Shown piece after piece: positions 20,918 to 46,600 of a stretch of DNA of 64,000 nt. How positions within the stretch are numbered: position 1 is the stretch's first letter; each line of letters opens with the position of its first letter. The stretch comes from Eledone cirrhosa (Eukaryota), in assembly GCA_964016885.1 (NCBI GenBank), contig OZ024742.1, positions 143,220,001 to 143,284,000 of the forward strand. Direction: 5' to 3'. The notes under the pieces were generated by a model, which was not told the DNA's origin, searched no databases, and worked only from the letters and a program-made list of their open reading frames with translations. Made by a program: the position numbers and the translations under genes.

Positions 20918-21134
20918 AGTCGTGTGTCACTTCGCGGAGAAGTTTCCGTTAATTTATGTAAGGAAAAAACGTGAGTTTTTAGTTCAATTTTATATCATTG
21001 TGTAACTTGACCACCCGTCTGGACCTTCAGGTGGTGGGTCAACTCATTTTCGCCCCTTCAGGGGCGGAATATCCATTTAAAAAATTTTTCTCCATCGAAT
21101 CTTGGAAAAAATATTGTAAAATTTTGATTACGTT

Positions 21135-23051
21135 ATGAACGCTGCGTCCAACGATAATGGTGGTGGAGAGGCGGTAAGACTACCAAGCTCGCAGTCAACA
21201 ACGTCTTCTTCACTAGATACTATAGAGATGGAAAGACGAAATGAAAATAAAAAAACGAATTCACATCCAAACAACACAAATGACACCAAACAGCTCAATG
21301 ACAACAAAAATAACAGCAAAACCAATAATGATGATAAAAGCAACAATGATAACAACAACAAAGAAAAAAATAAAGACAACGCCAATAACACCAGCATCAA
21401 AGACAACAACGACACCAAGGAAAATACGGATGATACCAACATCGGTGACAACAAGAATAACAACAAGAATAACAACAATAATGACAACACCACCAATACG
21501 GATTCCACAAAGAAACCAAAAATCTCCTTTGCGGAGAAAGTTCAAAAGAAAGAACAATTGATATATCTCGACATAACAAATGCTGAACACCTTTTAAAGG
21601 ACGCTAAGAGATATGTCACCTTCGAAAAAAATGGTGCTTTCAGCATCAATTCTCCGGTAGAAATTCGCAAGGAAACTGCTCTCAAAACGATAGTTTTTAG
21701 GACAGTTTCCAATTCTACCCGAAAACCAGTCCAATTGTCACAGAAAGATATTGAACTGGTTTTCAAAGATTCAATGAATGATATTGCATTCATTCAAAGA
21801 AGCAAACTTTTTGGGAGTATTTCGGTACTGATGAAGGATCAATTGACGGCCCAAAATTACTCTGTGTCGCCAATTGTATCCAACCTGTACACCTTTTTCC
21901 CTACATACATGGGAAAAAGGACACAAAAGATCAGAATCACAAGTGTCACACCAAAGGTGAACATATGGTGGATACTGTGCGGCTTCATCAATTTTGATGA
22001 AGACAGAATACTGTCAGTAGGCAAGTCCCCCAGAGATGTATTCAATGGGACTAGCATTGAAGTTCTGGTGCAAATGAGCCCAGAGCGAATAGCTATGATC
22101 CCACAGCGTGTACTCCTGGACGGACTTACCTACATAAACCTTTCGGTTGAGGGTAGGCGGCCTTCATGTTACCATTGCTTTAGCAGGGGTCACCTGAGGG
22201 CTTCCTGTCCTAAACTAATGAACCAAAAAAAGGCTCTTCTGCCAACACCCATCAAAACAACACAACCACCAACACCACCACTACAACAACAACACCAACA
22301 CACAAAAATAACCACAACAAACACAGTCCCACCCAACCTCACTCCACCTAAAACCACTGCAAAATCACATACAGACACAACAGCTCCCCAAGACATACCC
22401 CTCCCCAATCACACAGACGATACAACAGATGAGGCTATCTCGCCATCACCCAGTGAAGACGAGGGAGAACCCCATCGCTCGAAAAGAAAGAAAAGACATC
22501 ACAAAAGCAAAAAACCAGTAAACACTACCACAAACATACAACCACCAACACAAACAACAAAAATATCACAAACAAAACCCCCACCTCCTGAAAACAAAAT
22601 ACCTACAACAAAACGAAAGCACACACAAGAACTACAGACAAAAACAAACACAACACAAGAAAATTACACTTACACTTACATAAACACTGAAAACAAAACA
22701 CTAATGGAGACCATTACGAACGACCCTTCGGTTTTCACCGAAGGGAAAACTTTCGCCCACTCTATAAAAAATAGCAAAAAAATGAACCTAAAACTGATTA
22801 GGGTCCCTATACAAACTTATAGGTCCCTAAAAGAAACATTTGAGAAGGATGTGGGGAATTCCTGCGTGAAACCACTCAACCGCGTCCTTCTCAAATGCCT
22901 CCCCACTCCAGACACCCCCATCCCACCAGACCCCACCCCACCAAACATCTGCGTCCCCACCCCGCCGGAAACCACCACCCATCCAGACAACCCCTCCAAC
23001 ACCCCCATGGAAATCGTGCGGCCTGGTCCCCAGGAGGCGAAGGGTGAGTGA
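21135..23051 (+). CDS. ORF1 (gag-like nucleic acid binding protein)
   Basis: 638 aa. Asn-rich N-terminus, zinc knuckle CYHCFSRGHLRASC, Pro/Thr linker, conserved C-terminal block. Confidence 0.9.
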   Translation: MNAASNDNGGGEAVRLPSSQSTTSSSLDTIEMERRNENKKTNSHPNNTNDTKQLNDNKNNSKTNNDDKSNNDNNNKEKNKDNANNTSIKDNNDTKENTDDTNIGDNKNNNKNNNNNDNTTNTDSTKKPKISFAEKVQKKEQLIYLDITNAEHLLKDAKRYVTFEKNGAFSINSPVEIRKETALKTIVFRTVSNSTRKPVQLSQKDIELVFKDSMNDIAFIQRSKLFGSISVLMKDQLTAQNYSVSPIVSNLYTFFPTYMGKRTQKIRITSVTPKVNIWWILCGFINFDEDRILSVGKSPRDVFNGTSIEVLVQMSPERIAMIPQRVLLDGLTYINLSVEGRRPSCYHCFSRGHLRASCPKLMNQKKALLPTPIKTTQPPTPPLQQQHQHTKITTTNTVPPNLTPPKTTAKSHTDTTAPQDIPLPNHTDDTTDEAISPSPSEDEGEPHRSKRKKRHHKSKKPVNTTTNIQPPTQTTKISQTKPPPPENKIPTTKRKHTQELQTKTNTTQENYTYTYINTENKTLMETITNDPSVFTEGKTFAHSIKNSKKMNLKLIRVPIQTYRSLKETFEKDVGNSCVKPLNRVLLKCLPTPDTPIPPDPTPPNICVPTPPETTTHPDNPSNTPMEIVRPGPQEAKGE

Positions 23052-23084
23052 TCTCTTTTCCTCTTTTAACTTTTCAGCACCAAC

Positions 23085-26000
23085 ATGGCCAATATAAGAG
23101 TTGGATGTGTGAATGTACGCGGCCTGGGGATGCCCTGGAAACAGGGCAAACTCTTAAACGACCTCAGGTCGCACAGTTTGGATGTGGTAGCCATTTGCGA
23201 GTCCAGGATCCACGGCGAGCGACAGCTGGCCCCCATCTTCGATGACTTTGAGATCTACGCATCTCTCTGTCAACCGGGGGGTGGGGGCGGAGTTGCCGTT
23301 TTGCTGCGGAAACACCTGGGCCTCGTAACACAGACGGTACATCTGGACCCGGAGGGTCGACTGGTGGTCCTAGACGTTGACGGTAGTGAAGGTGGAGCGT
23401 TCAGGCTGGTGGCCGCATATGCCCCATCCGGGACACCGCGGCCAGACTTCTTCAAACGTCTAGAGACTTTTCTGGGAACGTCCCGCTCCTTGCTTTTAGT
23501 GGGGGACTGGAATGGAATCCTAGATGCACGTTGGGACTATGTGGGAGCATGTCCCGATAAAGGGGGGTGTAACAGCCTCAAACAGTTAATCGACCGATTT
23601 GACCTGGCCGATAGATATCGACTAGATTTTCCGACTGCGCCACTGTGGACGTGGAGTAATCGTAGCGGAACATCTAGATCGTACCTAGATAGGGTTCTAG
23701 TTAGAAATAAGGATAGGGACATGTTAAGCTGTCCACAAATGTTCATGGTTGCCTATTCAGATCACAAACTAGTGACCTGCATGGCCAACCTTGATAGAAC
23801 CCATAGACAAGGACCCGGCTACTGGAAGCTGAACTTGTCGTTACCGACAAGCAAAGCCTACAGTAGACGGATTAGCACTTTAGTTAAACAGCACTTGACA
23901 GGCGCCATTGTCAACAACAGATGGTGGTACTCTCTCAAGAGGGCAGTTAGATTAGACTCGATAGTTTTTAGTAAAGAATTAGCGTTAGATAGAAATAGAA
24001 CCGAGAAGGAACTGGTAGATAAAGTAGAAGAGGCAATTAGAAGTGGCAACGTAGCCAGCGTGCTAGCAACGAGAACGGCCTTGGACCAGTTCTTCGACGC
24101 AAAGCACGAGGGCTGCGTTGTCAGAAGCAAAATACGTGCTCTGGGAAACGAGGGAGCCAAAGCTGTTAGCTGGGCCCGAGTGACGGAGGCAAAAAGTGGC
24201 AACAAGTCCACGATTCGGTCTTTGAAGGACCAAAACGGACGCGTGATACGTGAGCCGAAGCAGATGTGTGCGGCTTTTCAGCGGCACTTTGCTCGGCTGT
24301 TCGGGGGGAGCGGCGCGCCGGGAGAGGCTATGGATTTCGGTCCATACCTCGACGGCCTACCGCGACTCTCGGACAGCGAGGCGAAGTTCTGCGAAAAGCC
24401 GATTTCAGCCACTGAGATAGGGGACGCGCTGAGCCAATGCGGCAAACGCAAATCTCCAGGTCTCGACGGTCTACCCTACGAATTTTACGTAGCAATGCCG
24501 GACTTATTCTCCGGTCTCCTGGAAGCGGTCTACTGCAACTGGCAACAGAACGGGAGAATTCCCAGTTCTGTAACCGGGGGCGTGGTCACACTAATCAGGA
24601 AGGACGAGAATAAGGGGGATGACATAGGCAACTTCCGGCCCATAACTCTGCTAAACACAGAGTTACAGATTTTGGCCAAGGTGTTGGCAAAGAGGCTGGC
24701 GCTTGTCGTCGAGAACCTGGTGGGAGAAGCGCAGACATGCGCGATCCCGACCAGGTCCATACACGACAACCTCCACCTCATGCGATACATCATAGAGAGG
24801 GTAGGGTGTAAACCCGGCTTCGGTGGGGCCCTGATCAACTTGGATCAGTCTAAGGCTTTCGATAGGGTTGACCATCGTTACCTGGATGCGGTGCTCGAGG
24901 CGGCAGGCTTCGGACCCGTGTTCAGGGGCTGGATTGCTGCAATGCACAACAGCAACATCTGCTCAAGGGTCAAGGTGAACGGTTACCTCTCGGAGCCGTT
25001 CCATATTACGCGATCCATTCGACAGGGATGCCCTCTCTCCTCCCTTCTGTACGTACTGACTCTCGAGCCACTACTGCGGAAGCTGGAGCTATTGCAGGGC
25101 ATCCCTCTGGAACCGGGACTGCGGAAAGCGGCGTCGGCCTACGCCGACGACGTGACAGTAATGGTGTCGAGCGCCTCGCAAATCGAGGAAGTCGGCACCT
25201 TACTAAAGGAATACGAAAGTCTCACAGGAGCGAAGCTGAACCGGGACAAGTCCATCGGTTTGCAACTCGGATCGTGGAGAGGCAGACCGATGCCTTCCGA
25301 TGGCGTCGTCGGACGCTGGACGGAAGGACCGGTAAAGCTGCTCGGGGTCTGGTTTGGTCCGGACCTCCAGGTGGAGAAGAACTGGAACGAAGTGACGGCC
25401 AAGGTGTTTGCACTCACCCAGAAGTGGGCCGAGTGCAAACTATCCTTGAAAGGTCGAGCGGAGGTGGCGAACACTTTTATAGCGTCCGCCATCTACTACC
25501 GCTTGACCGTCGTGCCTTGTCCAGCCAAAACGCTCGCCAAAATGGAGCGCGCCCTCTTCCGATTCCTTTGGAAGAGGCGGGCTCCTTTGGTAAGAAGATC
25601 CATCTGCTGCCAACACCCTTCTAACGGAGGGCTGGGGATGCCGTGGTTGACGATGCGCAAACACGCGCTCAGGCTGCGGCATCTCTACGTATTCCTCACC
25701 GGACAACCGGTGTGGGCCCCGTTCGTGAGGCGAGCCTTCCCACGACTCGTCTCGCTGACCGAGCTGCAGTCCTGGGTCAAGCAGAGACCGAGGAAAATGG
25801 GCGACTGGCACATCGAATGTGCTCAGGCGCTCACAGCCCTCTGGCAGGCGGACCCGGCGATCAGTGGAGACTCCACTTCGTCATTCTATAGAGGGTTGGT
25901 CCGCAGCAAGTGCGACGACGCGCTCGGTGAAACTCTAGGCGTGGAGGAAGATGAACTGGCCAGTCTGTTCGGTAGGACCTTCCGCCCGGGACCGATGGAC

Positions 26001-26522
26001 AACTTCCAAAAGTCCCTGGCCTGGCAGTGCTACCGAGGAGCTCTACCAGTTCGAGACAAGCTCTACAGACATGGGCGCCCGGGCAGGGACCCTGCAAAAA
26101 AGATCTGTCCGAGGTGCGTGCGAGACGAAGAAACCGTCGCGCACGCATTCATACACTGCCCGGGCGTCACTGACCTGTGGGGCTATGTAGAACGACTATT
26201 GTCGCGGGTGGGACCAATCCAGTTGACCACCGAGTCCATTGTCATGATCAAACCGCCACCCTCCTTCAAAAACGAAGGAGAGGCGGTTTTCCTTTGTGTG
26301 ATAGCTATGGCGAAAGAGGTTGTATGGTGGACAAGGTTGAAAGGGCTGAGGTCAGACACCTTTCTCTCCGGCCAACAACTGATTCTTTTTTTCAAATACC
26401 ACTTTGGAAGAAGAATCAGGATGGAGAGAGAGGTGCTGTACCCCAGCAAGTTTTATGAAAGGTGGGTGAAAGTGGCGAGAATGGCCCGAGTGAATGGGCC
26501 TTCTCTCTATATCAGCCTGTAG
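23085..26522 (+). CDS. ORF2: APE endonuclease, RT, CCHC zinc finger
   Basis: NVRGL, GDWN, YLDR, SDH, GYWKLN, KSPGLDG, FRPITLLN, DQSKAFDRV, RQGCPLS, YADD, GGLG, CPRC...HAFIHC. Confidence 0.96.
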   Translation: MANIRVGCVNVRGLGMPWKQGKLLNDLRSHSLDVVAICESRIHGERQLAPIFDDFEIYASLCQPGGGGGVAVLLRKHLGLVTQTVHLDPEGRLVVLDVDGSEGGAFRLVAAYAPSGTPRPDFFKRLETFLGTSRSLLLVGDWNGILDARWDYVGACPDKGGCNSLKQLIDRFDLADRYRLDFPTAPLWTWSNRSGTSRSYLDRVLVRNKDRDMLSCPQMFMVAYSDHKLVTCMANLDRTHRQGPGYWKLNLSLPTSKAYSRRISTLVKQHLTGAIVNNRWWYSLKRAVRLDSIVFSKELALDRNRTEKELVDKVEEAIRSGNVASVLATRTALDQFFDAKHEGCVVRSKIRALGNEGAKAVSWARVTEAKSGNKSTIRSLKDQNGRVIREPKQMCAAFQRHFARLFGGSGAPGEAMDFGPYLDGLPRLSDSEAKFCEKPISATEIGDALSQCGKRKSPGLDGLPYEFYVAMPDLFSGLLEAVYCNWQQNGRIPSSVTGGVVTLIRKDENKGDDIGNFRPITLLNTELQILAKVLAKRLALVVENLVGEAQTCAIPTRSIHDNLHLMRYIIERVGCKPGFGGALINLDQSKAFDRVDHRYLDAVLEAAGFGPVFRGWIAAMHNSNICSRVKVNGYLSEPFHITRSIRQGCPLSSLLYVLTLEPLLRKLELLQGIPLEPGLRKAASAYADDVTVMVSSASQIEEVGTLLKEYESLTGAKLNRDKSIGLQLGSWRGRPMPSDGVVGRWTEGPVKLLGVWFGPDLQVEKNWNEVTAKVFALTQKWAECKLSLKGRAEVANTFIASAIYYRLTVVPCPAKTLAKMERALFRFLWKRRAPLVRRSICCQHPSNGGLGMPWLTMRKHALRLRHLYVFLTGQPVWAPFVRRAFPRLVSLTELQSWVKQRPRKMGDWHIECAQALTALWQADPAISGDSTSSFYRGLVRSKCDDALGETLGVEEDELASLFGRTFRPGPMDNFQKSLAWQCYRGALPVRDKLYRHGRPGRDPAKKICPRCVRDEETVAHAFIHCPGVTDLWGYVERLLSRVGPIQLTTESIVMIKPPPSFKNEGEAVFLCVIAMAKEVVWWTRLKGLRSDTFLSGQQLILFFKYHFGRRIRMEREVLYPSKFYERWVKVARMARVNGPSLYISL

Positions 26523-26782
26523 GTTGAGGAAAAGGAGGAGGAGAGGAAAGGAGTACAAGCTCTTCGTACTCCTGGAGATGAGGGTTGCACATTTTTTTCG
26601 GGGGTCTGTGTTACCCATATAAACTGTCTCCCTCTATTGGGGAAAATCGACTAACTTTTAAATTCCATCTGTGATAACATTTTACACGTTTTTATTGTAT
26701 GTAAACTTCCCCCTTTGTATTTGTCCCCTTCTTTTGTGCCCCTGTGGCTAATAAAGAAATATATCTATCTATCTATCTATCT

Positions 26783-27029: not shown

Positions 27030-27048
27030 TCTATCTATCTATCTATCT

Positions 27049-28615
27049 GATTCTTTTTTTAAAATACCACTTTAGAAGAAGAGTCAGTAATGGTGTCGAC
27101 CGCCTCGCAAATCGAGGAAGTCGGCACCTTACTGAAGGAATACGAAAGTTTCACAGGAGCGAAGCTGAACCGGGACAAGTCCATCGGTTTGCGACTCGGG
27201 GTCTGGTTTGGTCCAGGTGGAGAAGAACTGGAACGAAGTGACGGCCAAGGTGTTTGCACTCACCCAGAAGTGGGCCGAGTGCAAACTATCCTTGAAAGGT
27301 CGAGCGGAGGTGGCGAACACTTTTATAGCGTCCGCCATCTACTACCGCTTGATCGTCGTGCCTTGTCCAGCCAAAACGCTCGCCAAAATGGAACGCGCGC
27401 TCTTCCAATTCCTTTGGAAGAGGCGGGCTCCTTTGGTGAGAAGATCCATCTGCTGCCAACACCCTTCTAACGGAGGGCTGGGGATGCCGTGGTTGACGAT
27501 GCGCAAACACGCGCTCAGGCTGCGGCATCTCTACGTATTCCTCACCGGACAACCGGTGTGGGCCCCGTTCGTGAGGCGAGCCTTCCCACGACTCGTCTCG
27601 CTGACCGAGCTGTAGTCCTGGGTCAAGCAAAGACCGAGGAAAATGGGCGACTGGCACATCGAATGTGCTCAGTCGCTCACAGCCCTCTGGCAGGCGGACC
27701 CGGCGATCAGTGGAGACTCCACTTCGTCATTCTATAGAGGGTTGATCCGCAGCAAGTGCGACGACGCGCTCGGTGAAACTCTAGGCGTAGAGGAAGATGA
27801 ACTGGCCAGTCTGTTCGGTAGGACCTTCCGCCCGGGACCGATGGACAACTTCCAAACGTCCCTGGCCTGGCAGTGCTACCGAGGAGCTCTACCAGTTCGA
27901 GACAAGCTCTACAGACATGGGCGCCCGGGCAGGGACCCTGCAAAAAAGATCTGTCCGAAGTGCGTGCGAGACGAAGAAACCGTCGCGCACGCATTCATAC
28001 ACTGCCCGGGCGTCACTGACCTGTGGGGTTATGTAGAACGACTATTGTCGCGGGTGGGACCAATCCGGTTGACCACCGAGTCTATTGTCATGATCAAACC
28101 GCCACCCTCAAACCGCCATCAAAAACGAAGGAGAGGCGGTTTTCCTTTATGTGATAGCTATGGCGAAAGAGGTTGTATGGTGGACAAGGTTGAAAGGGCT
28201 GAGGTCAGACACCTTTCTCTCCGGCCAACAACTGATTCTTTTTTTCAAATACCACTTTGGAAGAAGAATCAGGATGGAGAGAGAGGTGCTGTACCCCAGC
28301 AAGTTTTATGAAAGGTGGGTGAAAGTGGCGAGAATGGCCCGAGTGAATGGGCCTTCTCTCTATATCAGCCTGTAGGTTGAGGAAAAGGAGGAGGAGAGGA
28401 AAGGGGTACAAACTCTTCGTACTCCTGAAGATGAGGGTTGCACATTTTTTCGGGTGAATGTGTTACCCATATAAACTGTCTCCCCCTATTGGGGAAAATC
28501 GACTAACTTTTTAAATTGCATTTGTGATAACATTTTACACGTTTTTATTGTATGTAAACTTCCCCCTTTGTATTTGTCCCCTTCTTTTGTGCCCCTGTGG
28601 CTAATAAAGAAACAT
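27049..28615 (+). mobile_element. 5'-truncated Tx1 copy, nearly identical to A
   Basis: Matches about 25157-26762 with internal deletions, a stop and a frameshift. Ends in (ATCT)n. Confidence 0.93.
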
Positions 28616-28657
28616 ATCTATCTATCTATGTAAGTATGTATGTATGTAGGTATGTAT

Positions 28658-29191
28658 TTGACTGCCGAGTCCATAGTAAGGATCAAACCGCCAACTTCTT
28701 TCAAAAACGAAAGAGAGGCGGTTTTCCTCTGTACAGTGGCTATGGTGAAAGAGGTTATATGGTGGACGAGATTGAGAGGACTGAGGACAGATGCCTTTCT
28801 CTCCAGACAACAACTCATTCCCTTCTTTAGATACCACTTTAGAAGGAGAATCAGAATGGAGAGAGAGGCACTGCACCCCAGTAAATTTACTGAAAGGTGG
28901 GTGAATGTGGCAAAAATGGCCCGAGTGATTGGGCCTTCTCTGTATATAAACCTGTAGGTTAAAGAAGAGAGCAAAAGGAAGAAGGGAGCACTTGCACAAC
29001 ACGCTCCTGAAGTTGAGGGTTGTTCTATCGACGGGGTATTAAACAACCCATTTGTGGCGCCTCCCCTCTATTGGGGATTTCGATTGTTATAATTGTTTGT
29101 TTCAATATTTTTACACGACTGTATGTACAATCCCAGGCATGTGTCTTTGTATTGTCCCCTTTTATTGTGCGCCCTTGTGGCAAATAAAGAA
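28658..29191 (+). mobile_element. 5'-truncated Tx1 copy of another subfamily
   Basis: LTAESIVRIKPP...ARVIGPSLYINL*, then 3'UTR and (ATCT)n. Confidence 0.9.
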
Positions 29192-29774
29192 ATCTATCTA
29201 TCTATCTATCTATCTATCTATATAGCTAGCTAGCTATCTGTATATCTATCTATATATCTATTTGCTCTTGTATCAAATAAAGAAATCTATCTGTATATCT
29301 ATTTAAACTATCAGTCAACAATAATCGCACTACCTCTACTACAAACATCACAGCCACCTTCATCAGCATCGTCATCATTATCACTCCTACTATAAAACCA
29401 CCACCACTACCATCACCACCACCACCACCACCACCACCCTCCTCATCACCTCTATTTCAATCCTTTCATCTATAATCTTCGTCAGTAAAAAATATATCTT
29501 TTCTATCTCTGTCTCTCAATTTGATGTTATATCTCTTTAACCTCTCTCACTCTCTCTCTGTATCCATCTTTGTCTATCTCTATGCCCCACTAAATCGGAC
29601 TATCTGACCCTCTCTTTCTCACTTTCTCTATCTTTCCCTCAGTTTGTTTTTGCATTTCTTTTTCTATGTAGGTATGATATGTCAGTCTCTAAATGTTGAT
29701 ATATGTGTCATATTTATATAGAACACAAATACTCGACACTAACATTTAATATTTCATAAATATTTTACATTAGC

Positions 29775-31691: not shown

Positions 31692-31944
31692 TGATTTCAT
31701 TTATTGGCCACAAGGGCCGACATATAGGGGACAACACAATAGACAGGGACAGTGGGGGTTTACATAGAGATCGAGTAAGTATAAATAACAAAAAACAAAA
31801 TAACAATAAAAATACAACAATGAAAGTTCCCCAATAAGAGGGATCACCACCCAGGGTTGACTCAAGCACCCCACCAGTCCTGAGCCACCCGACGCTCCTA
31901 GGGCACCCGGGAAGGGCACCCCTCTCCTTCTCGAATTCACCAGC

Positions 31945-34900
31945 CTACAGGCGCATGATCAGAGTAGGCCCACTCACGCGGGCCATTCTCGCCACATTCA
32001 CCCACCTTTCAGTAAATGTACTGGGGGGCAGCACTTCTCTCTCCACCCTCACCTTCCTTTCCAAGTGAAACTTGAAGAAGTTGATGAGGGATTGGCCGAA
32101 GAGAAAAGTGTCTGTCTTCAGTCCTTTCAACCTGGTCCACCATGCAACCTCTTTCGCTACTGCCACCAGGCAGAGGAAAATTGCCTGCCCTTCCTGACCA
32201 AAAGAAGGCGGCGGGTCAATCTTCACTATGGACTCGGACGATAGCCGGATCCGTTCTACACGCGACAATAGCTGTTCGACATAACCCCACAAGTCAGCAA
32301 TGCACGGACACTGGACGAGTGCGTGCAGAACGGTTTCGTCGCTCTGCGCGCATCTCGGGCAGGTTCGTCTGACAGCACTTCCGTGCCTGTAGAGTTTATC
32401 CCGAACCGGCAGCGCCCCCCGGTAGCACTGCCAAGCGAGGGATTTCTGGAAGTTATCCATCGTCCCCGGTTCGAAAGTCCTCCGGAACATACTGGTCAGT
32501 TCTACTTCGTTGACGCCCAGAGCCTCTCCTAGTACGTCATCGCACTTGCCCTCCACTAATCCTCTATAGAAATCTTGAGTGGAAGTTCCACTGACCGCAT
32601 TGCCCACCTTGCAGAGTGCAGTGAGCGCCTGGCAACATTCCAGATGCCAGTCGCCCAGTCTCGGTCTCTTCTTGACCCAGGACTGCAGCTCAGTCAAAGA
32701 GATGAGCTGCGGAAAGGCCCGTCTAACAAACGGCGACCACACCTGTTCACCGTTTAGGCAAAATATCTGGAGATGTCGCAGCCTCAGCGCATGTCTGCGC
32801 ATCATTAGCCACGGCATGCCCAGCCCTCCACGAAGAGGGTGCTGGCAGCAGATGGACCGCCTCACCAACGGGACCCGTCCCCTCCACAAAAATTTGAAAA
32901 GGAGCCGTTCCAAATTGGCGAGGCGTGGACGGGGGCAAGGCACGACGGTCAGGCGGTAGTAGATGACGGACGCGATGTACGCGTTCGCCACCTCCGCCCG
33001 CCCTTTCAGTGATAGCTTTCTCTCAGCCCATTTCTGGGTGAGGTTGGCTATCCTGCTCGTCACCTCGTCCCAATTCTTATCCACCTGGAGGTCTGGTCCG
33101 AACCAAACCCCGAGCAACTTTACCGGTCCGTCTGTCCAGCGCCCAACGACGCTGTTGGACGGCATGGACTTGCCTCTCCAGGTGCCGAGCTGCAAGCCCA
33201 CCGACTTTTCCGGGTTAAGTTTTGCTCCCGTCAACCTTTCATATTCCTCCAAATGGGTGCGGATCACCTCGATTTCCGAGGTGTCCGACACCATCACGGT
33301 GATGTCGTCCGCATAAGCGGACGCAGCCTTTCTGCGTCCCGGTTCGAGCGGGATGCCCTGCAACAACTCCAGCTTCCGCAGTAGAGGCTCAAGAGTCAAT
33401 ACGTACAGAAGTGAGGAGAGAGGGCACCCCTGACGGACCGATCGAGAGATCTGAAACGGTTCCGAGAGGTGGCCATTAACTTTGACCACCGAGCAGATGC
33501 CGCTGTACATTGCAGCGATCCAGCTTCTGAAGACGGGGCCGAAGCCAGCCGCCTCGAGGACAGCCTCCAAGTACCGATGGTCGACCCTATCGAATGCTTT
33601 CGATTGATCTAAATTGATCAGAGCCCCACCGAAGCCAGGTTTGCACCCAACCCTCTCTATGATGTATCGCATGAGGTGGAGGTTGTCGTGTATGGACCTG
33701 GTCGGGATTGCGCAAGTTTGCGCCTCCCCAACCAAATCTTTGACGACAAGCGCCAACCTTTTCGCTAACATCTTGGCCAAAATCTTAAACTCTGTGTTGA
33801 GCAGGGTTATGGGCCTGAAATTATCTAGTGTGTCCCTCTTGTTCTCGTCTTTCCTTATCAGCGTCACTACGCCACGGCTCACAGAACTGGGAATGCTCCC
33901 GTTCTGCTGCCAGTTGCAGTAGAGCGCTTCGAGGAGATCGGAGAACAAGTCTGGCATATTTACGTAAAGCTCGTAGGGCAGACCATCCAAACCGGGTGAC
34001 TTGCGACTCGAGCAGCCGACAAGGGCGTCCTGAATTTCGACTGATGTTATCGGCTCTTCGCAGCGCTCAGCGTCGGCCGTCGAGAGGCGTGGCAAGCCGT
34101 CGAGGTAGGGACTGAAGTCCGCCGCCGTCTCCGACTCACCCATCCTCCCGAACAATCGAGCAAAGTGCTGGCGAAAGGCCTCACACATCTGCTTGGAATC
34201 GCTCAGTTCGTGTCCATCTCGATCCGTCAAAGACCGAATTGTGGTTTTATTTCCACGCTGCGTCTCTGCAAAGCGAGCCCATCGGGCAGCTTTGGTTCCC
34301 TCGTTCCTCAGAGCACGCGCCTTAGCTCTGACAATGCAACCTTCGTGTTTCGCATTGAAGAAATGGTCTAGTGCCATTCTCGCCGCTAGCACGCCTGTTG
34401 CAATGCCACTACAAATAGCCTCGTCTAACTTAGCTATCAGCCCCTCCTCCTTTCTATTTTTCTCTATTGCTACTTCTTTGCTAAATCCTATCGAGGTTGC
34501 TCTAATCTCTCTTTTGAGTGCCCCCCACCACCTGTTGTTGACAACCCCCCCTGTCAACTTTTGCTTAACTAAGTTGTTGACCCGGTCCCTGTAAGCTTTA
34601 CGTGCCGGAAACGACATGTTTAGCTTCCAGTAGCTAGGTCCTAACCTACGTGTCTTATCTAGGTCGACCATACAGATCACAAGCTTGTGATCTGAATAGG
34701 CAACCGTTTTAAAATGTGGACATCCTACACTATTTCTATCTCTTTTCCTAATGAAAATCCTATCTATGTACGATCTAGATGACCCTATGCGATTGGTCCA
34801 GGTCCATACTGGCGCATTAGGGAAATCTAGTCGGTACCTGTCAGACAGTTGAAACTGGCTGATCAGGTACTTGAGGCTTTTGCACCCCCCGCTCCTATCA

Positions 34901-35364
34901 GATACTCCCACACAATCCCAGCGTGCTTCTAAGATGCCATTCCAATCCCCTATTAACAGTAAAGGGCGAGACGTAAGCAGAAAGTTTTCCAGGCGCCTAA
35001 AGAAGTCCGGCCGACCGGCCCCAGTAGGGGCGTAGACGGCCACCAGTCTAAAGGCACCACCTTCGCTATTGCTCACGTCCAGGACCACCAACTTTCCGTC
35101 AGGATCCCGGAAGATTGACCTTACCTCGAGATCCAGACATTTCCTAAACAGCACAGCCACTCCACCTCCCATTCCCGGCCGACTAACAGATGCAAAGATC
35201 TGATAATCGTCGAAAATCGGCGCCAGTGCGCGTGTGTCGGAAATTCTGGTCTCGCTGATGGCAATTACATCCATTCCTAGTGACCTGAGGTCGTTGAGCA
35301 AGTGACCTTGCTTCCAGGGCGACCCCAGGCCACGAACATTTAAACTTCCTACTCTTATGGCCAT
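31945..35364 (-). CDS. ORF2: APE endonuclease, RT, CCHC zinc finger
   Basis: 1139 aa, collinear with ORF2 of copy A. YADD; CPRCAQSDETVLHALVQC. Confidence 0.96.
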   Translation of the reverse strand: MAIRVGSLNVRGLGSPWKQGHLLNDLRSLGMDVIAISETRISDTRALAPIFDDYQIFASVSRPGMGGGVAVLFRKCLDLEVRSIFRDPDGKLVVLDVSNSEGGAFRLVAVYAPTGAGRPDFFRRLENFLLTSRPLLLIGDWNGILEARWDCVGVSDRSGGCKSLKYLISQFQLSDRYRLDFPNAPVWTWTNRIGSSRSYIDRIFIRKRDRNSVGCPHFKTVAYSDHKLVICMVDLDKTRRLGPSYWKLNMSFPARKAYRDRVNNLVKQKLTGGVVNNRWWGALKREIRATSIGFSKEVAIEKNRKEEGLIAKLDEAICSGIATGVLAARMALDHFFNAKHEGCIVRAKARALRNEGTKAARWARFAETQRGNKTTIRSLTDRDGHELSDSKQMCEAFRQHFARLFGRMGESETAADFSPYLDGLPRLSTADAERCEEPITSVEIQDALVGCSSRKSPGLDGLPYELYVNMPDLFSDLLEALYCNWQQNGSIPSSVSRGVVTLIRKDENKRDTLDNFRPITLLNTEFKILAKMLAKRLALVVKDLVGEAQTCAIPTRSIHDNLHLMRYIIERVGCKPGFGGALINLDQSKAFDRVDHRYLEAVLEAAGFGPVFRSWIAAMYSGICSVVKVNGHLSEPFQISRSVRQGCPLSSLLYVLTLEPLLRKLELLQGIPLEPGRRKAASAYADDITVMVSDTSEIEVIRTHLEEYERLTGAKLNPEKSVGLQLGTWRGKSMPSNSVVGRWTDGPVKLLGVWFGPDLQVDKNWDEVTSRIANLTQKWAERKLSLKGRAEVANAYIASVIYYRLTVVPCPRPRLANLERLLFKFLWRGRVPLVRRSICCQHPLRGGLGMPWLMMRRHALRLRHLQIFCLNGEQVWSPFVRRAFPQLISLTELQSWVKKRPRLGDWHLECCQALTALCKVGNAVSGTSTQDFYRGLVEGKCDDVLGEALGVNEVELTSMFRRTFEPGTMDNFQKSLAWQCYRGALPVRDKLYRHGSAVRRTCPRCAQSDETVLHALVQCPCIADLWGYVEQLLSRVERIRLSSESIVKIDPPPSFGQEGQAIFLCLVAVAKEVAWWTRLKGLKTDTFLFGQSLINFFKFHLERKVRVEREVLPPSTFTERWVNVARMARVSGPTLIMRL

Positions 35365-35393
35365 GCTGGCAGGATGAATGGGAGAGGAAAGGT

Positions 35394-37304
35394 TTACTTA
35401 CCTTCCGGGGTCTTGTGAAGGTCGGGTGGTTCGACCTCCATGGTTTGTGGGGTTTCTTTTGGGAACCCCTTTAATAGTCTTGACGTGGGTTTTACGTTCG
35501 GGGTTCCCACATCCCGAGGAAAGCTCTTTCGAATTTCTTTGTATGAAGCGAGCGACATTCGCATCAGAAGCAAATTATCTGGTACGCGAAATGTGCTCGC
35601 TTCAAATGTTTCCCCGTCTTTTTCGATGTTTGTGCTTCGTGCTACATGGGCCATCAATTCCTTGTTGGCCCTTCTGGCAAGCACGAAGTTTTTAATGTTT
35701 TGTTGCTCGGGTTTTATTTGTTCGTGTGATTGTGGTGGTGATAGCTTTGTTAGTGTTGTTTCTATTGTGTCTGCGTTTGTTGTGGGTGGGGTGTCTGTAG
35801 TTTCTGATGTTTGTGTGTCTATTTGTTCTTGTGTCTGTTTAGCTTGTTTGCGTTTGGGGGATTTTGGTGGTTGTGTTGGTGATGCTGTGGGGAAAATGTT
35901 TGTGTGGGTGGTGTGTGTATTTTTTTTTGTGGGGGTGTTTGTGCTTTGTGGATTTCTTTTTTTTTTGTGTTTTGTTTTTTGTATTTTGGGGGACTTTGGT
36001 TTTCCCTCATCTTCACTGCTGGAGGATGAGGGGTCTGTGGCTGTGAGCGTGTTTGTGTCTGAGTGAGTGTTTATGTTCTTGTTCGTGTGTGTATTTTGGG
36101 GGGGAGGGGGAATGGGAGAGCTTTCCTCGTTTCCCCCCTGGGTGTGCAATTTTGGTGGTTCCATTGTTGACGGTGTTGCTGGTGGTCCTTGTCCCGGCGT
36201 CGCCAGCAGTGGAATCTTTCGACCCCTTGCGCTTTTCGGCAGTTGAGGGCAGAAGGCTCGCAAGTGTGTCGTTTCCCCACAAAGGAAACAATGCGGCCTT
36301 TTGCCCTCAGTCATTATATGCAACACCCTCCCGTTTTGGAGGCGGATGTGGTCCGGGATTGCTTTTACGTTTTCGGGTCTGATTTGGAGCAGTATCTCCA
36401 GATCAACCCCGGACCAGTCGTCCCTGGCAGTTCTCGTTGCCTCTACCGGGACTGTATCCGTTCCTTCCACGATTACGCAACCCAGGAGCCACCACATATC
36501 AAGTCCTGGTGGAATCCTGGGAATGCGCACACGTGCTATTCGTTTTCCCATGTGGGAGGGGTACATTATAACCTTGCTGGTTTTGCAAGGGGTCATTGAA
36601 TGCTTCACAGCGAGGGCTTCAGACTTGAACAGCACCGAAACGGTGCCGTATTGCCTGCCCCTCTCTATGAAGTCTGTGTCCTCTCTAATGTATTTCAGTG
36701 CGGCTTCTATATCAGCTTGGGCGATTATCGCTGCCCTCTTTGTCTCTACTGAGATGCATCTGAAATGCACCGTTCTTTTTTCCACTGCCTCAATGGCTTC
36801 TGCCGGGACAGTTAAGTTTGCCCAGGTCTGCTCTTGATTTATGATTTTCCAGGCCTGGGCCAACTTTTCCTCTCTGTTGGTTAAGTCGATGCTGTAGCAT
36901 GGTCTCCTTTTGGCCGCTGCCACAGCAGCGAAGGTGTTCTTGTTGGTGTTGTCACTGTTGTTGTTCTTGTTGGTGTTGCTGCTGCTATTGCTGTTGTTGT
37001 TCTCCCCTGTGTCGTGGTTACCCTCTGTGCTGTTGGCCTTGTTGGTGCTGTTGCTGTCGCTACTATTACTCTCTGTGCTGTTCGTTTTGTTGGTGCTCTC
37101 GCTATTACCACCTTCTGCGCTGTTCGGCTTGTTGGTGTTGGTGTTGTCGCTGTTACCACCTTCCGCGCCGCTCGGCCCGTTGGTGCTGGCACTGTCGCTG
37201 CTCACATTCGTGCTGGTGGCGCTCCTCGCCTCACCTCTGCTCTCAACGCTCAAGTCGTCGTTGCACAACAGCAGACCCGCCTCTAGGGGGCGTGGCTCCG
37301 CCAT
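35394..37304 (-). CDS. ORF1 (gag-like)
   Basis: 636 aa. Zinc knuckle CFLCGETTHLRAFC; same layout as ORF1 of copy A. Confidence 0.9.
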   Translation of the reverse strand: MAEPRPLEAGLLLCNDDLSVESRGEARSATSTNVSSDSASTNGPSGAEGGNSDNTNTNKPNSAEGGNSESTNKTNSTESNSSDSNSTNKANSTEGNHDTGENNNSNSSSNTNKNNNSDNTNKNTFAAVAAAKRRPCYSIDLTNREEKLAQAWKIINQEQTWANLTVPAEAIEAVEKRTVHFRCISVETKRAAIIAQADIEAALKYIREDTDFIERGRQYGTVSVLFKSEALAVKHSMTPCKTSKVIMYPSHMGKRIARVRIPRIPPGLDMWWLLGCVIVEGTDTVPVEATRTARDDWSGVDLEILLQIRPENVKAIPDHIRLQNGRVLHIMTEGKRPHCFLCGETTHLRAFCPQLPKSARGRKIPLLATPGQGPPATPSTMEPPKLHTQGGNEESSPIPPPPQNTHTNKNINTHSDTNTLTATDPSSSSSEDEGKPKSPKIQKTKHKKKRNPQSTNTPTKKNTHTTHTNIFPTASPTQPPKSPKRKQAKQTQEQIDTQTSETTDTPPTTNADTIETTLTKLSPPQSHEQIKPEQQNIKNFVLARRANKELMAHVARSTNIEKDGETFEASTFRVPDNLLLMRMSLASYKEIRKSFPRDVGTPNVKPTSRLLKGFPKETPQTMEVEPPDLHKTPEGK

Positions 37305-37744
37305 GTTTTTTTGAGAAAAAAATTATTATTTTTTTTCAAAATAAAGTTCAAATATTTGGGCCAAAAGGCCCAAATATTATGAGTTATTCCTTCACAGGAT
37401 ACAAATTAATGTCTTATAATGCTTCAGCGGTACAAAAATTAAACAATTCTCTACAATTAATCCTCAAAAAATTGCTTACTCACGGAGCTTCAAAAAACGT
37501 ACATCCACTTTCGTCAATAATAATAATAATAATTTCAAACATAGGTGCAAAACTACCCATAACTTATAGGAGTGCAACTAAATACCCCACGGTTTTTTCT
37601 CTGGTATCACCGAAGAAAGAAAGAGCCAAACTAAATACTATTAAGCTCAAATGTCGAATGCAATGCTGATAAGTAAAGAGAAAGAAGCGAACACTACTTT
37701 TAACTTTCTTTCTCAGCACAAAAAATACATAACATACACAGCTT

Positions 37745-41573: not shown

Positions 41574-41662
<89 letters not shown>
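41574..41662 (+). repeat. (TCTA)n microsatellite, 5' flank of Tx1-C
   Basis: Direct reading. Confidence 0.95.
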
Positions 41663-41663
<1 letters not shown>

Positions 41664-41863
41664 GATAGAGTGAGACACGCTTCACATCGGCTCTGCTATT
41701 CTATCGGAATTTACCCTTACTATAGTAAGTACCAGTGAATTTTTTCAATGCAACACATTTGGAACACGTACCCCTGTTATTTAGGGAAACATTTTTATAT
41801 TTACCCCCTTTTTAGGGGGTAAAATAAATAACTATTTTTCTGTAAAACTTCTTTCTTTGACGC

Positions 41864-43668
41864 ATGGCGGGAAAGATGGCAGACATGTCTGCCATTAGCT
41901 CTGCCACGCCCCCCAAGTCTGAAGAACAAAAAATAGATACAACAAAACTAGACAACGAAACAAACAAACAATGAAAATGAAAAAACAAATGTTACGGAAA
42001 TGAGCAAACGGAAAACAAACAAACAGAAAATAAGAATACAAAAAACAACAAGGCAACTTTCGCCCAGACAACAAAAAAATCTATAATATATACACCTATT
42101 GACTTGACTGACGCCAGAGAAAAACTGGCAAAAGCAAAAAAGCACATAGTCTTGGGGGAGAACGGAATGTTTTCCATTAATTCCCCCCCAGAATTCAAGA
42201 AAACGAGACTAGAAAACACTGTTCTGTTTAGAACAATTCTAAACCACACGAGAAAGCCAGCACAGCCCAGCCAAATGGAGATAGAGTTGGTCCTAAAAGA
42301 CTATATGAAGAATATTCTCTTCATACGAAAGGACCGACTCCATGGCAGCATTTCTGTTTTAACAAAAGACAAGGAAACAGCACAGAGGCTTTCCCTAAGC
42401 CCACTCTCAACAACAGCATACAGTTTCTATCCCTCCTACATGGGTAGAACTCAGAGAGCCAAAATACAGACAATGCTGCCCACAATGGACTTCTGGTGGG
42501 CTATTGCTGGCTTCATAGACATGGGCGAGGACACAGTGCTGTCAATGGGGAAGGCATCTGGAGATGCGTTCCTGGGAATGGGCCTCGACCTACTAGTCCA
42601 AATGAGGCCCGAAAGAATAGCGCAAATCCCGGATCGCATCTGGCTGGATGACCTCACCCCAATATATATAATTGTAGAGGGGAGAAGACCAGCATGCTAT
42701 TCATGCATGGAAAGGGGACACGTTAAGGCTAACTGCCCGAATCATATCCCCCAAAAAGGACTATTGCCCACATCCACCACAAACAGTACACCAACACCAC
42801 CCACCTCCAAAAATACACTAATACCACACACAGCAAACAAAATACAGACACCACCAACCACAAGCACAACACAAACATCACCACCACCAGCACCAACCAC
42901 AACACAAACATCACCACCACCATCACCAACCACAAGCACGACACAAACATCACCACCACCACAAAACACATTCCAAACTAATAATAAAAAAAACAGCAAC
43001 AAATCTACCCCTCCCGCAAAAAAAACAACCAGACACCACGTCCCTCCCACCTAGCGCTGAAGAGTTTCCCCCAACTTCTGAAGAAGAAGGAGGAGAAGCC
43101 TTCAGACAAGTTAAAAGAAAAAAACGAAAGCACACACCCAGCACACCACAACAACAAATAACCTACACACAAACACCAACTCCAATCAAAAACACCACAC
43201 CCTCGACAAACAAAAATAAATCTGCGCCTCCCCTCTTCGAAACATTGACAGCATCACAAAAAAAGACGTTGCAATACACATATATAAATAAAGAAAACAA
43301 AAAACTGTTTAAATTAATAAACAATAGCCCTTTGGTGCAGACCGAAGGGCCAAACTTTATCTCAACAGAGAACTTCACCCATTTAAAAATGATAAAGGTC
43401 CCTCTGGACCTTTATCGTTCCTTAAAAGAACAATTTAAACAGGACGTGAGCCCCCTCCTGTTTAAAACCGTTAAATCGCGTCCTCTTGAAAGATTTCCCC
43501 ATAACCTCCCCTCTCCCTGACACAACTCCAAATACCCCAACCCCACCACACTCGGATACCCCCACACCACCACAAAACATCCCTCCACCCAACACACCCG
43601 ACCCCATGGAAATTACACAACCCGGAGAGGTAGGTGCTTTTCTTTCTTCACTTTCAACACCAAAATAG
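41864..43668 (+). pseudogene. ORF1 pseudogene
   Basis: ENGMFSINSP.E, CYSCMERGHVKANC, YTYINKENK, PMEITQPG in shifting frames. Confidence 0.88.
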
Positions 43669-46600
43669 ATCAATTGAGAGTTGGCTGTTTGAATGCGCGT
43701 GGCCTGGGCTCAGCTTGGAAGCAAGCAAAGCTTCTAAGTGACCTCAGGTCACGAAGTATAGATGTGATGGTTGTTTGTGAGAGTCGGATCAGCAGCGTGC
43801 GACAGCTGGCTCCCGCCTTCGATGACTTTGAGATGCACGCATCTCTCTGTCAACCCGGAGGCGGGGGTGGGGTTGCCGTACTGCTGGATAAACGTCTGGC
43901 TCTCGACGTACAGATTGTTCACTCGGACCCGGGGGGGGGGGGTCGATTACTGGTGCTGGACGTCGGAGGCGGTGAAGGCGGGGCTTTCAGACTGGTCGGT
44001 CTTTATGCCCCCTTCGGGGCTGAAAGAGCCGACTTCTTCCAGCGTCTGGAGACTTTTCTAGGAACGTCGCGTCCCCTGCTTTTAGTGGGGGACTGGAATG
44101 GAATCCTAGATGCGCGTTAGGACTATGCAGGGGCATGTCCCGATAGAGGGGGGTGTAGCAGCCTCAAGGGGTTACTCCATCGATTCGACCTGGTCGATAG
44201 ATTTCGACTAGATTTTCCAACTGTGCCAACCTGGACCTGGGCAAACCGCAGTGGTCAATCTAGATCGTACCTAGATAGGTTTTTGGTTAGGAGTAAGGAT
44301 AAGGACGTATTTAGTTGTCCAGAATTGCTCATGGTTGGCTATTCAGATCACAAATTAGTGACCTGCGTGGTCAACCTTGATAGAACGCATAGACAGGGTC
44401 CCGGTTACTGGAAGATGAACTTGTCCTTGCCGGCAAAGGAAGCTTACAGGAACCGGATTAGTAGCTTAGTTAAGATGCGGTTGACGGGAGCGATCGTCAA
44501 CAGCAGGTGGTGGGTATCTCTAAAGAGAGAGATTAAAGTAAGTTCGATAGGTTACAGTAAGGAACTAGCGGCGAATAGAAATAGGAGGGAAAGGGAGTTA
44601 ATAGATAAACTAGAAGAGGCGATTAGGAGCGAAGACGTGGCCAGAGTGTTAGCGTCGAGAACGGCGTTGAGCCAGTTCTTTGACGCGAAGCACGAAGGCT
44701 GCGTTGTCCGAAGTAAAATACGTGCTTTAGGAAACGAGGGGACCAAAGCTGTTAGCTGGGCCCGCGTGACAGAAGCCAAGAGTGGGATTAAATCCACCAT
44801 TCGGTCTTTGCGAGACCAGGATGGACGGGTGATCCTTGAACCTGAGCGGATGTGCGAGGCACTTTGCTCGACTGTTCGGAGGGGGCGGGGGGCCGGACGG
44901 GGATGTGGACTTCGGTCCATACCTCGACTGTCTACCGCGTCTTTCAAGCGGCGAAGCGGAGTGCTGAGAAAGGCCAATCACAGCCACTGAAATCGGTGAA
45001 GCGCTCAGCCAATGCAGCAGACGCAAATCTGCGGGTCTCGATGGTCTACCATACGAACTTTATTTAGCTATGCCGGTCTTGTTCTCCGAACTCCTCGAGG
45101 CTGTCTATTGCAACTGGCAACAGAATGGGAGAATTCCCTGTTCTGTGACCAAGGGCGTAGTCACGCTAGTGAGGAAGGACGAGAGCAAGGGGGACGACTT
45201 AAGTAACTTTAGGCCCATAACTCTGCTGAATGCAGAGTTACAGATTTTGGCCAAGGTGTTGCCGAAGAGGTTGGCGCTTGTGGTGGGTGGTTTGGTGGGA
45301 GACGCGCTGGATTTCTGCCATGCACAGTGGCAACGTCTGCTCTAGGGTTAAAGTAAACGGCTACCTCTCGGAGCCGTTTCAAATCACCCGGTCCATCAGG
45401 CAGGGGTGCCCCCTCTCCTCCTTTCTGTACGTATTGGCTCTCGAGCCACTGCTGCGGAAGTTGGAGTTGCTGCGGGGCATACCACTGGAACCGGGATTGC
45501 ACAAAGCGGTCTCGGCCTATGACGTAACAGTAATGGTGGCGGACGCCTCGGAAATCGGGGCGATCGCCACCCTACTGGAGGAATACGAAAGGCTGACGGG
45601 GGCTAGGCTGAACCGGGACAAGTCAGTCGGTTTGCAACTCGGAACGTGGAGGGGCAAACCGATGCCGTTAGACGGTGTAGTCGGGCGGTGGACGGAGGGC
45701 CCGGTGAAGCTGCTCGGGGTCTGGTTCGGACCGGACCTCCAGGTGGAGAAGAATTGGGGCGAGGTGACGAGCAGGGTGTTTGCGCTGACCCAGAAGTGAG
45801 CCAAGTGCAAACTATCACTGAAAGGTCGGGCGGAGGTGACGAACGCTTACATAGCGTCCGTCATCTACTACCGCCTGACCGTCGTGCCTTGCCCCAAGGA
45901 AACGCTCACCATCATGGAGCGCATGCTCTTCCAGTTCCTCTGGAAGAAGCGGCCTCCCATGGTGAGGAGATCCATCTGCTGCCAGCACCCTTCGAAAGGA
46001 GGGCTGGGTATGCCGTGGATGTTGATGCGTAGGCACGCATTGAGGCTACGGCATTTACAGGTATTCCTCACCGGTCAGCGGGTGTGGGCCCCGTTTGTGA
46101 GGCGAGCCTTCCCACAGCTCGTCTCGCTCACCGAGCTGCAATCCTGGGTGAAGCAAAGACCGAGAAAACTGGGCAACTGGCACACCGAGTGTGCCCAGGC
46201 GCTCACGGCTCTCTGGCAAGCGGACCCGACTATCAGTGGAGACTCCACCTCGACATTCTATAGAGGGCTGGAGGCTAACAGGGGCGATGACACCCTTGGA
46301 GAGTCGCTAGGCATGGAGGAGGACGAACTGGCCAGCCTGTTCGGTAGAACTTTCGGCCCGGGACCCATGGACAACTTCCAGAGGTCCCTAGCCTGGCAGT
46401 GCTACCGGGGGGCTCTGCCCGTTCGAGAAAAGCTCTACAGACACGGACGCCCGGGCAGGGATCCCGCGAAAAAGATCTGTCCCAGATGCGTGCGCGACGA
46501 GGAAACCGTTGCGCACGCACTAGTACACTGCTCGGGCGTTGCCGATCTGTGGGGCTACGTCGAACGACTGCTGTCGCGTGTGGCGCCGATTCGATTGGCC

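What the first reader, a model, noticed from the sequence alone, without database searches (positions are those of the whole stretch)
23044..26522. Tx1 ORF2 appears to lie wholly inside an intron: donor at the ORF1 end, acceptor at the ORF2 stop codon
Seen: all three full-length copies have a consensus 5' splice site in the last ORF1 codons. A has AGG|GTGAGT (23044), B has AAG|GTAAGT (35401, minus) and C has GAG|GTAGGT (43630). All five ORF2 ends finish as a pyrimidine-rich stretch plus CTGTAG|G, with the TAG being the stop (26522, 28375, 28957, 31945, 46894). Joining donor to acceptor gives an almost immediate in-frame stop in each diverged copy: A K-G-TGA, B E-G-W-TGA, C E-V-K-K-TGA. This holds even though the donor phase differs in C. 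Inference: splicing yields an ORF1-only mRNA that keeps the 3'UTR and AATAAA, setting ORF1p:ORF2p stoichiometry. Established: copia-type LTR elements make a spliced gag-only RNA, whereas L1-clade LINEs are normally thought to use one bicistronic RNA. I know of no such arrangement in Tx1. Retrotransposing this RNA would give ORF1-only (HAL1-like) elements. Caveat: copy A has a competing CAG 7 nt upstream of the TAG.
Basis: partly seen in the sequence, partly recalled or inferred. Interest (0 to 1): 0.9.

Follow-up and report, generated by a model that had tools for sequence, protein, structure and literature searches.

The report
Conserved splice donor ending LINE ORF1
A large, young family of jumping genes in an octopus-like genome keeps a textbook splice-start signal at the end of its first gene in every subfamily examined, which likely lets it cut out its second gene to make a short first-gene-only message, though no RNA showing that cut was found.

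Summary
The sequence facts hold. The donor is real and lineage-wide: 47 of 50 ORF1/ORF2 junctions carry G|GT(AA/GA/AG)GT. Five of its positions are invariant in 10 of 10 families, in three codon phases, while the flanks diverge. Distant L1/Tx1 relatives lack it (0 of 32).

The acceptor half is weaker. An abundant clade (F) keeps the donor but ends ORF2 in TAA: 13 of 46 ends, one derived branch. The near-immediate stop holds at the TAG in 7 of 11 TAG families. A rival acceptor at 25891, present in 12 of 12, also gives early stops.

No spliced retrocopy was found in seven genome-wide pattern searches, so the HAL1 corollary is unsupported. No RNA run on record was available.

Best reading (0.45): the donor is likely spliced in part of the transcripts to an acceptor at or just before the ORF2 stop, giving an ORF1-only mRNA as in Drosophila copia. 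Main rival (0.3): an unspliced U1-binding site. I found no such arrangement described for Tx1 in nine literature searches.

The parts
20918..26760 (+). Copy A: full-length L1/Tx1-type LINE between (ATCT)n tracts; young family
   Evidence: 300 exact ORF1-end+donor copies genome-wide; 150 ORF2 starts at 97-100% identity
20971..20976 (+). Second donor-like site (GTGAGT) in the 5'UTR of A; similar sites in most families
21135..23051 (+). ORF1 of A, 638 aa, one CCHC knuckle, stop TGA overlapping the donor
23041..23049 (+). Conserved 5' splice site AGG|GTGAGT (intron would start at 23044), codon phase 1
23052..23084 (+). Pyrimidine-rich linker; its CAG (23075-23077) occurs only in families A, M and B
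23085..26522 (+). ORF2 of A, 1145 aa: APE endonuclease, RT, zf-RVT
23480..23499 (+). Rival acceptor-like site (YAG in 10 of 12 families), exon would start at 23500
25872..25891 (+). Rival acceptor-like site TTCTATAG (YAG in 12 of 12 families), exon would start at 25892
26499..26523 (+). Proposed acceptor: pyrimidine tract, CAG at 26513-26515, TAG stop 26520-26522, then a purine-rich run
26523..26760 (+). 3'UTR of A with AATAAA at 26750-26755
27049..28620 (+). 5'-truncated A-type copy; ORF2 stop at 28375 (near copy of A)
28660..29195 (+). 5'-truncated E-type 3' end; ORF2 stop at 28957
31695..37516 (-). Copy B: full-length, both ORFs intact, (ATT)n tracts at both ends; 5'UTR GTGAGT at 37483; ORF2 stop TAG at 31945
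35396..35404 (-). Donor AAG|GTAAGT of B (intron would start at 35401), phase 1
41662..47125 (+). Copy C: full-length, degraded (frameshifts, 197-nt ORF2 deletion); 5'UTR GTAAGT at 41725; ATA in place of the ORF2 ATG at 43665; ORF2 stop TAG at 46894
43627..43635 (+). Donor GAG|GTAGGT of C (intron would start at 43630), phase 0

Best explanation
This LINE lineage keeps a consensus 5' splice site across the last codons of ORF1, and a fraction of its transcripts is likely spliced from it to an acceptor at or just before the ORF2 stop, which would give a short ORF1-only mRNA with the normal 3'UTR, while unspliced RNA would make ORF2p and be copied into the genome. Shown: the donor and its conservation. 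Inferred: that U1 binds it, that splicing occurs, where the acceptor is, and that the purpose is an excess of ORF1p. The acceptor is probably the first AG of the pyrimidine tract: the CAG/AAG 7 nt before the stop where one exists, otherwise the TAG. Family F must use a poorer site or has lost the splice.
For: Donor in 47 of 50 junctions. Positions -1, +1, +2, +5, +6 are identical in 10 of 10 families; flanking columns agree in 4-7 of 10, bar one at 9. These families are 66-96% alike in ORF2 DNA and 23-51% to A in ORF1 protein. Variation is confined to GTAAGT, GTGAGT and GTAGGT, the common metazoan donor hexamers (recalled). It survives in phases 0, 1 and 2, so each invariant base is synonymous or non-coding in some family. 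The junction always lies before the ORF1 stop. The ORF2 stop ranks 1st-9th of 95-122 YAGs for pyrimidines in 10 TAG families. A score of pyrimidines before plus purines after, devised after seeing the data, ranks it 1st in A, C, E, G, J and among the top three scores in B, H, I, K. Taking the first AG in the last 16 nt before the ORF2 stop gives a stop within 4 codons in 12 of 13 family representatives, A being the exception (post hoc, partly automatic from the frame, and a GAG in F). Precedent: Ty1/Copia short gag mRNA and the ~3-kb Drosophila copia intron (PMC5580714, passages). Protein-level hint only: octopod ORF1 relatives end in GK, GKS or GKKWKQN.
Against: Family F keeps the donor but ends ORF2 in TAA (13 of 46 ends; about 45 of the first 100 rows by my reading). 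Its nearest AGs are a GAG and an AAG. Synonymous sites in the last 15 ORF2 codons are not unusually conserved: rank 35 of 196 windows, and 26% of conserved codon columns are as invariant as the stop. Four-fold pyrimidine bias there ranks only 152-165 of 873 windows. Human L1 also has a 3'UTR polypurine motif and conserved splice sites that mostly evade splicing (PMC5860796, passages). No spliced retrocopy from the donor side (A, F, K/J, C) or the acceptor side; all 22 hits were local indels, point mutants or a 5' truncation. This is weak, because cis-preference would make such copies rare. None of 23 listed internal gaps starts at the donor or follows GT-AG.
Confidence: 0.45

Rival explanations
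1. The site is an orphan U1-binding site that is not spliced. U1 would protect the 3.4-kb ORF2 part from early polyadenylation, or aid its stability or export, with the 5'UTR site doing the same for ORF1.
For: A second donor-like site lies near the 5' end: GTRAGT in 7 of 10 families whose 5' end was recovered, weaker AAG|GT sites in F1 and F2, none in I. None of those full-length copies has it spliced out. The donor persists in F without a YAG at the stop. No spliced retrocopies. U1 blocks premature termination in EVD (PMC5580714).
Against: In every family the junction lies before the ORF1 stop rather than drifting into the free linker. ORF2 holds no AATAAA/ATTAAA in A, E, F2 or G. Good acceptors exist downstream.
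Confidence: 0.3
2. The donor splices to an internal ORF2 acceptor: 25891, which would fuse ORF1 in frame to the last 210 residues of ORF2 (the zinc-binding end) in phase-2 families and give early stops in others; or 23499.
For: YAG at 25891 in 12 of 12 families including F, mean pyrimidine share 0.76; YAG at 23499 in 10 of 12. 25891 is at or near the top of the post hoc score in F, I, H and B. It gives E-D-stop in B, H, I and a stop after 4 codons in C.
Against: Both sites are explained by the protein. 30 of 65 conserved Arg columns are AGR in at least 9 of 10 families, and 7 of 108 Leu columns favour NTA. Products differ between phases. No spliced retrocopy at 25891 in the ATT clade: 2 hits, one a local mutation and one a truncation. 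The ATCT clade was not searched for this site.
Confidence: 0.12
3. A micro-intron of 34-61 nt over the pyrimidine linker fuses ORF1 to ORF2 in frame.
For: In 7 of 8 phase-2 family representatives the first AG after the donor joins the ORF2 frame; B, H and I have an in-frame TAG at 53-59 nt.
Against: With cis-preference the ORF2-making RNA is the one copied, yet all 50 junctions keep the pyrimidine linker, and none of 150 family-A ORF2 starts has an open frame over 1150 aa. C and E have no in-frame AG. Introns of 34-41 nt are below the usual animal minimum (recalled). A Kozak-like CAAC-ATG is kept. The AG is the conserved Arg codon.
Confidence: 0.06
4. Both motifs are by-products: an inherited Arg-stop or Gly-Lys-stop end of ORF1, and an inherited Leu-TAG-purine termination context.
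For: Adequate for the acceptor: background codon invariance is 26%, and TAA arose once without loss of success.
Against: Fails for the donor: the non-coding +5/+6 bases and synonymous bases are invariant across three phases while the linkers differ in length (25-45 nt) and sequence.
Confidence: 0.07

Closest known systems
Tx1-clade non-LTR retrotransposons that target microsatellites (Kibi, Koshi, crocodilian Tx1; PMC4494074, passages)
   Same: Two ORFs; APE endonuclease + RT + zf-RVT; CCHC knuckle in ORF1; insertion into simple repeats, here (ATCT)n and (ATT)n.
   Different: Different target repeats. No conserved donor at the ORF1 end is mentioned in the passages read or the search listings. 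Placement against named Tx1 families was not tested.
Drosophila copia and Arabidopsis Ty1/Copia (EVD) spliced short gag mRNA (PMC5580714, passages)
   Same: A conserved U1 site at the end of the structural gene. The proposed ~3.5-kb intron would remove the enzyme gene and keep the normal 3' end, as in D. copia. U1 may also act without splicing.
   Different: Those are LTR elements with one gag-pol frame and proven spliced RNA. Here ORF1 already has its own stop, and splicing is not shown.
Human L1 splicing and SpIREs (PMC5860796, abstract and passages)
   Same: An L1-type element with conserved splice sites, bicistronic RNA, cis-preference and a 3'UTR polypurine motif.
   Different: The splices described there are intra-5'UTR or 5'UTR/ORF1, are detrimental, and leave retrocopies (about 2% of full-length insertions). 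Here the donor is at the ORF1 end and no retrocopy was found.
ORF2 translation by termination-reinitiation in L1 and SART1 (PMC5972666, passages)
   Same: Short linker and its own start codon for ORF2; likely how the unspliced RNA makes ORF2p.
   Different: Does not call for a splice donor.
HAL1 (half-L1) ORF1-only elements (recalled; only search listings seen)
   Same: The predicted spliced RNA would have the same gene content.
   Different: No ORF1-only copy with the splice junction was found in this genome.

Membership tests
L1/Tx1 group of non-LTR retrotransposons | ORF2 with APE endonuclease, RT and C-terminal zinc-binding domain | tested here: met
   PF03372, PF00078, PF13966 in A and B; best solved-structure match is LINE-1 ORF2p, E 7e-114
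Tx1 clade | ORF1 with CCHC zinc knuckle | tested here: met
   C345 C348 H353 C358 invariant in 8 of 8; Pfam zf-CCHC only below its cut-off, 5 of 8
Tx1 clade | Target-sequence preference | tested here: met
   (ATCT)n or (ATT)n at both ends of full-length copies; the two tails separate on the ORF2 tree, 100/100. Target-site duplications were not mapped.
Tx1 clade | RT phylogeny placing it with named Tx1 families rather than other L1 clades | not tested
   No named Tx1 reference sequence came from any call; the label Tx1 rests on anatomy
Copia-type spliced subgenomic mRNA | Conserved U1-type donor at the end of the structural ORF | tested here: met
Copia-type spliced subgenomic mRNA | Conserved acceptor | tested here: inconclusive
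   TAG in 9 of 10 families, lost in F; rival sites exist
Copia-type spliced subgenomic mRNA | Spliced short RNA detected and translated | not testable with these tools
   No RNA run on record; only contigs, with the joint table cut
HAL1 / SpIRE-type spliced retrocopies | Genomic copies with ORF1 joined to the 3'UTR at the splice junction | tested here: not met
   0 found. Families B, H, I, E, G were not searched from the donor side. Exact patterns miss mutated copies.

The most novel reading that the evidence does not exclude
An octopod L1/Tx1 lineage has independently evolved the copia strategy: all or nearly all of ORF2 is a retained intron, and regulated splicing from a donor overlapping the ORF1 stop makes a dedicated ORF1 mRNA, so host splicing sets the ORF1p:ORF2p ratio and switches the element between inert and mobile.
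Probability: 0.45. Interest if true: 0.85.

Novelty: new variant of a known kind. Interest (0 to 1): 0.62.

Why it matters
How LINEs make far more ORF1p than ORF2p is usually put down to inefficient reinitiation on one bicistronic RNA, and splicing is seen as harmful to L1. A lineage with over 8,000 ORF2 5' ends in this genome has kept a perfect donor at this one place through frame shifts and linker turnover. If it is spliced, it is a LINE counterpart of the copia gag mRNA, reached convergently, and gives the host or the element a tissue-specific switch. If it is not spliced, it is a clean natural case of a selected splicing-independent U1 site in a retrotransposon. One RNA-seq junction search separates the two, and related elements in sequenced octopus species make that search possible now.

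Tried and rejected
RNA evidence: no RNA holder listed. Four contig runs of unrecorded kind were laid on copy A. Only 15 of 141 joints were shown and none was 23043>26523; one X4 contig spans 23017-23259 unspliced at depth 8. This is neither for nor against. X4 held 0.40 of the words, which equals the ORF1+3'UTR share, but its contigs cover all 30 bins, so I rejected that coincidence.

Spliced retrocopies: none. Caveat: the 'not the donor' patterns miss exon starts with G at +3 or +5 or with G at +5 or T at +6, so they do not fully cover 23499, 25891 or the micro-intron. Only supplies a measured denominator (300). Two promising acceptor-side hits were 11-nt duplications.

An ORF2-only mRNA from the 5'UTR donor to an AG before the ORF2 ATG was rejected: that AG exists only in A, M and B. 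A recursive AG|GT site was rejected: no pyrimidine tract upstream.

The 42%-identical lineage of P0003 has no closer match in this genome, so no near outgroup with DNA was available. The word-based ORF1 search found nothing; the profile search found 908 proteins but no DNA. Earlier findings: none.

Literature searches listed no paper on a spliced ORF1-only Tx1 RNA. Most were seen as listings only. Subscription papers and Repbase Reports are not in the library, and no supplements were read.
Full report
What it is. The window (G000:C3:143220001-143284000 of a 3.0-Gb animal genome) holds three full-length and several 5'-truncated copies of a two-ORF LINE. ORF2 has APE endonuclease, RT and zf-RVT, and its best solved relative is LINE-1 ORF2p. 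ORF1 has one CCHC knuckle. ORF1 relatives with names come from Octopus and Argonauta, so the host is likely an octopod. Copies sit in (ATCT)n (A, C) or (ATT)n (B), like microsatellite-targeting Tx1 families (PMC4494074, passages). The Tx1 label rests on this anatomy, not on a tree with named Tx1 elements. The lineage is large and young: 300 exact family-A ORF1 ends, 150 ORF2 starts at 97-100% identity, many with intact frames, and 8,464 further ORF2 5' ends.

The observation. One of the five ORF2 ends is a near copy of A. To test generality I took 400 kb beside the window and 40 copies that I chose for diversity from the first 100 rows. They fall into about a dozen subfamilies, 66-97% alike in ORF2 DNA, in an ATCT-tail and an ATT-tail branch. 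The pattern was built from five families, so more distant ones may be missed.

The donor is real. 47 of 50 junctions carry G|GT(AA/GA/AG)GT within 25-45 nt of the ORF2 start, and the 3 misses are broken copies. Background is about 0.006 per 60 nt. With one copy per family, -1, +1, +2, +5 and +6 are identical in 10 of 10, while flanking columns agree in 4-7 of 10 (one at 9). The motif is kept in three reading phases: Arg-stop (AG|G TAA/TAG/TGA, then non-coding GT) in most families, Gly-Lys/Glu-stop in A, B, H and I, and phase 0 in C. So it is the nucleotide motif, not the peptide, that is conserved, and it varies only as true U1 sites vary (recalled). It is lineage-specific: 0 of 32 metagenome L1/Tx1 loci whose match reached the ORF2 start (of 80 fetched, mostly 23-35% identical) have a G|GTRRGT within 60 nt. 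ORF1 relatives from other octopods end in GK, GKS or GKKWKQN, which would fit the donor, but their DNA was not seen. Most families also have a second donor-like site in the first 90 nt of the 5'UTR, unspliced in every full-length copy seen.

The acceptor is not settled. For it: in 10 TAG family representatives the stop is among the 1-9 most pyrimidine-led of 95-122 YAGs. A purine-rich run follows, and a post hoc score combining both ranks it first in A, C, E, G and J. The four families in which the TAG gives a long extension (E, K, K2, M) all have an AG 7 nt upstream that reaches ORF2's own stop after 2 codons, although that is partly automatic from the frame.

Against it: 13 of 46 ORF2 ends are TAA, all in family F, one derived branch that is about 45% of the first 100 rows and keeps the donor. 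Its sister family I has TAG|T. Synonymous conservation and pyrimidine bias at the ORF2 end are unremarkable. The early-stop argument is not specific: it holds at the TAG in 7 of 11 families, and a rival YAG at 25891, present in 12 of 12, gives stops after 2-4 codons in B, H, I and C and an in-frame ORF1 fusion to the ORF2 C-terminal region in phase-2 families. A loose end shows a further subfamily ending AAATAG|G with no pyrimidine tract next to the AG.

Direct evidence is missing. No RNA run is on record and the contig overlay was cut, so it says nothing either way. Seven exact-pattern searches of the whole genome for spliced retrocopies gave 22 hits, all local indels, point mutants or a 5' truncation (read). 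Their blind spots are listed under Tried and rejected. None of 23 listed internal gaps in the sampled copies follows GT-AG. Because L1 proteins prefer their own RNA (PMC5860796, passages), an RNA without ORF2 would rarely be copied. So this weighs little against splicing, but it leaves the HAL1 prediction unsupported. The same logic weighs heavily against a micro-intron fusing ORF1 to ORF2, since all 50 junctions keep the linker.

Mechanism. Shown: a selected U1-type site straddling the end of ORF1, always upstream of the stop. Inferred: U1 binds it; part of the RNA is spliced to the first AG of the tract at the ORF2 end, yielding a roughly 2.4-kb ORF1 mRNA with the usual poly(A) signal; unspliced RNA makes ORF2p by reinitiation at the CAAC-ATG (as proposed for L1 and SART1, PMC5972666, passages) and is the template for new copies. 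I give this 0.45, an unspliced U1 site 0.3, an internal acceptor 0.12, a micro-intron 0.06 and by-product 0.07. The first two are not exclusive: in Arabidopsis EVD one U1 site does both (PMC5580714, passages).

Novelty and verdict. It would work like the copia short gag mRNA but is not a member of that system. It is an L1/Tx1-type LINE with a feature that nine searches did not find in print (mostly listings). A 2026 O. vulgaris repeat paper lists 13 recently active L1-Tx1 families, and its main text has no occurrence of 'splic' (PMC13282606, passages). New variant of a known kind; interest 0.62, or 0.85 if the spliced RNA is shown.

Noticed in passing
window 43665-43667; L188, L190, L199: Family C has ATA instead of ATG at the ORF2 start in 4 of 4 copies, and the ORF1 stop TAG overlaps it. 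This suggests a non-AUG stop-start coupling, or a family mobilised in trans.
   Followed up: no
window 20971, 37483 (minus), 41725; loci L182-L221: A second donor-like site lies 28-90 nt from the 5' end in most families although their 5'UTRs look unrelated. A GC hairpin lies further into each 5'UTR.
   Followed up: partly
window 26756-29200; G000:C1 rows about 5.9 kb apart: Copies insert into the microsatellite tails of earlier copies and build head-to-tail arrays. The two target repeats, (ATCT)n and (ATT)n, match the two main ORF2 branches.
   Followed up: partly
about 50 kb upstream of the window (L075-L076 region): A copy with an E-type 5' half and an A-type 3' end, likely a recombinant between subfamilies.
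   Followed up: no
window 7680-10850: An intact single-ORF LINE of another clade (APE + RT + DUF6451, 1056-aa frame), RTE-like by recall; unrelated to the finding.
   Followed up: partly
window 26700-26755 and all 3'UTRs: A conserved 3' terminal motif (pyrimidine run, then CCCY-N-GTGG, then AATAAA) shared by all families; possibly the RT recognition signal.
   Followed up: no
proteins P0168, P0178, P0196: Database gene models in which pieces of this ORF1 are fused to host-like domains. They may be prediction artefacts, or exon capture through the element's splice sites.
   Followed up: no
protein P0124: A 603-aa ORF1 relative ending in GK lies on an ENA contig of only 2209 nt, about the size of an ORF1-only RNA. 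The DNA could not be fetched.
   Followed up: partly
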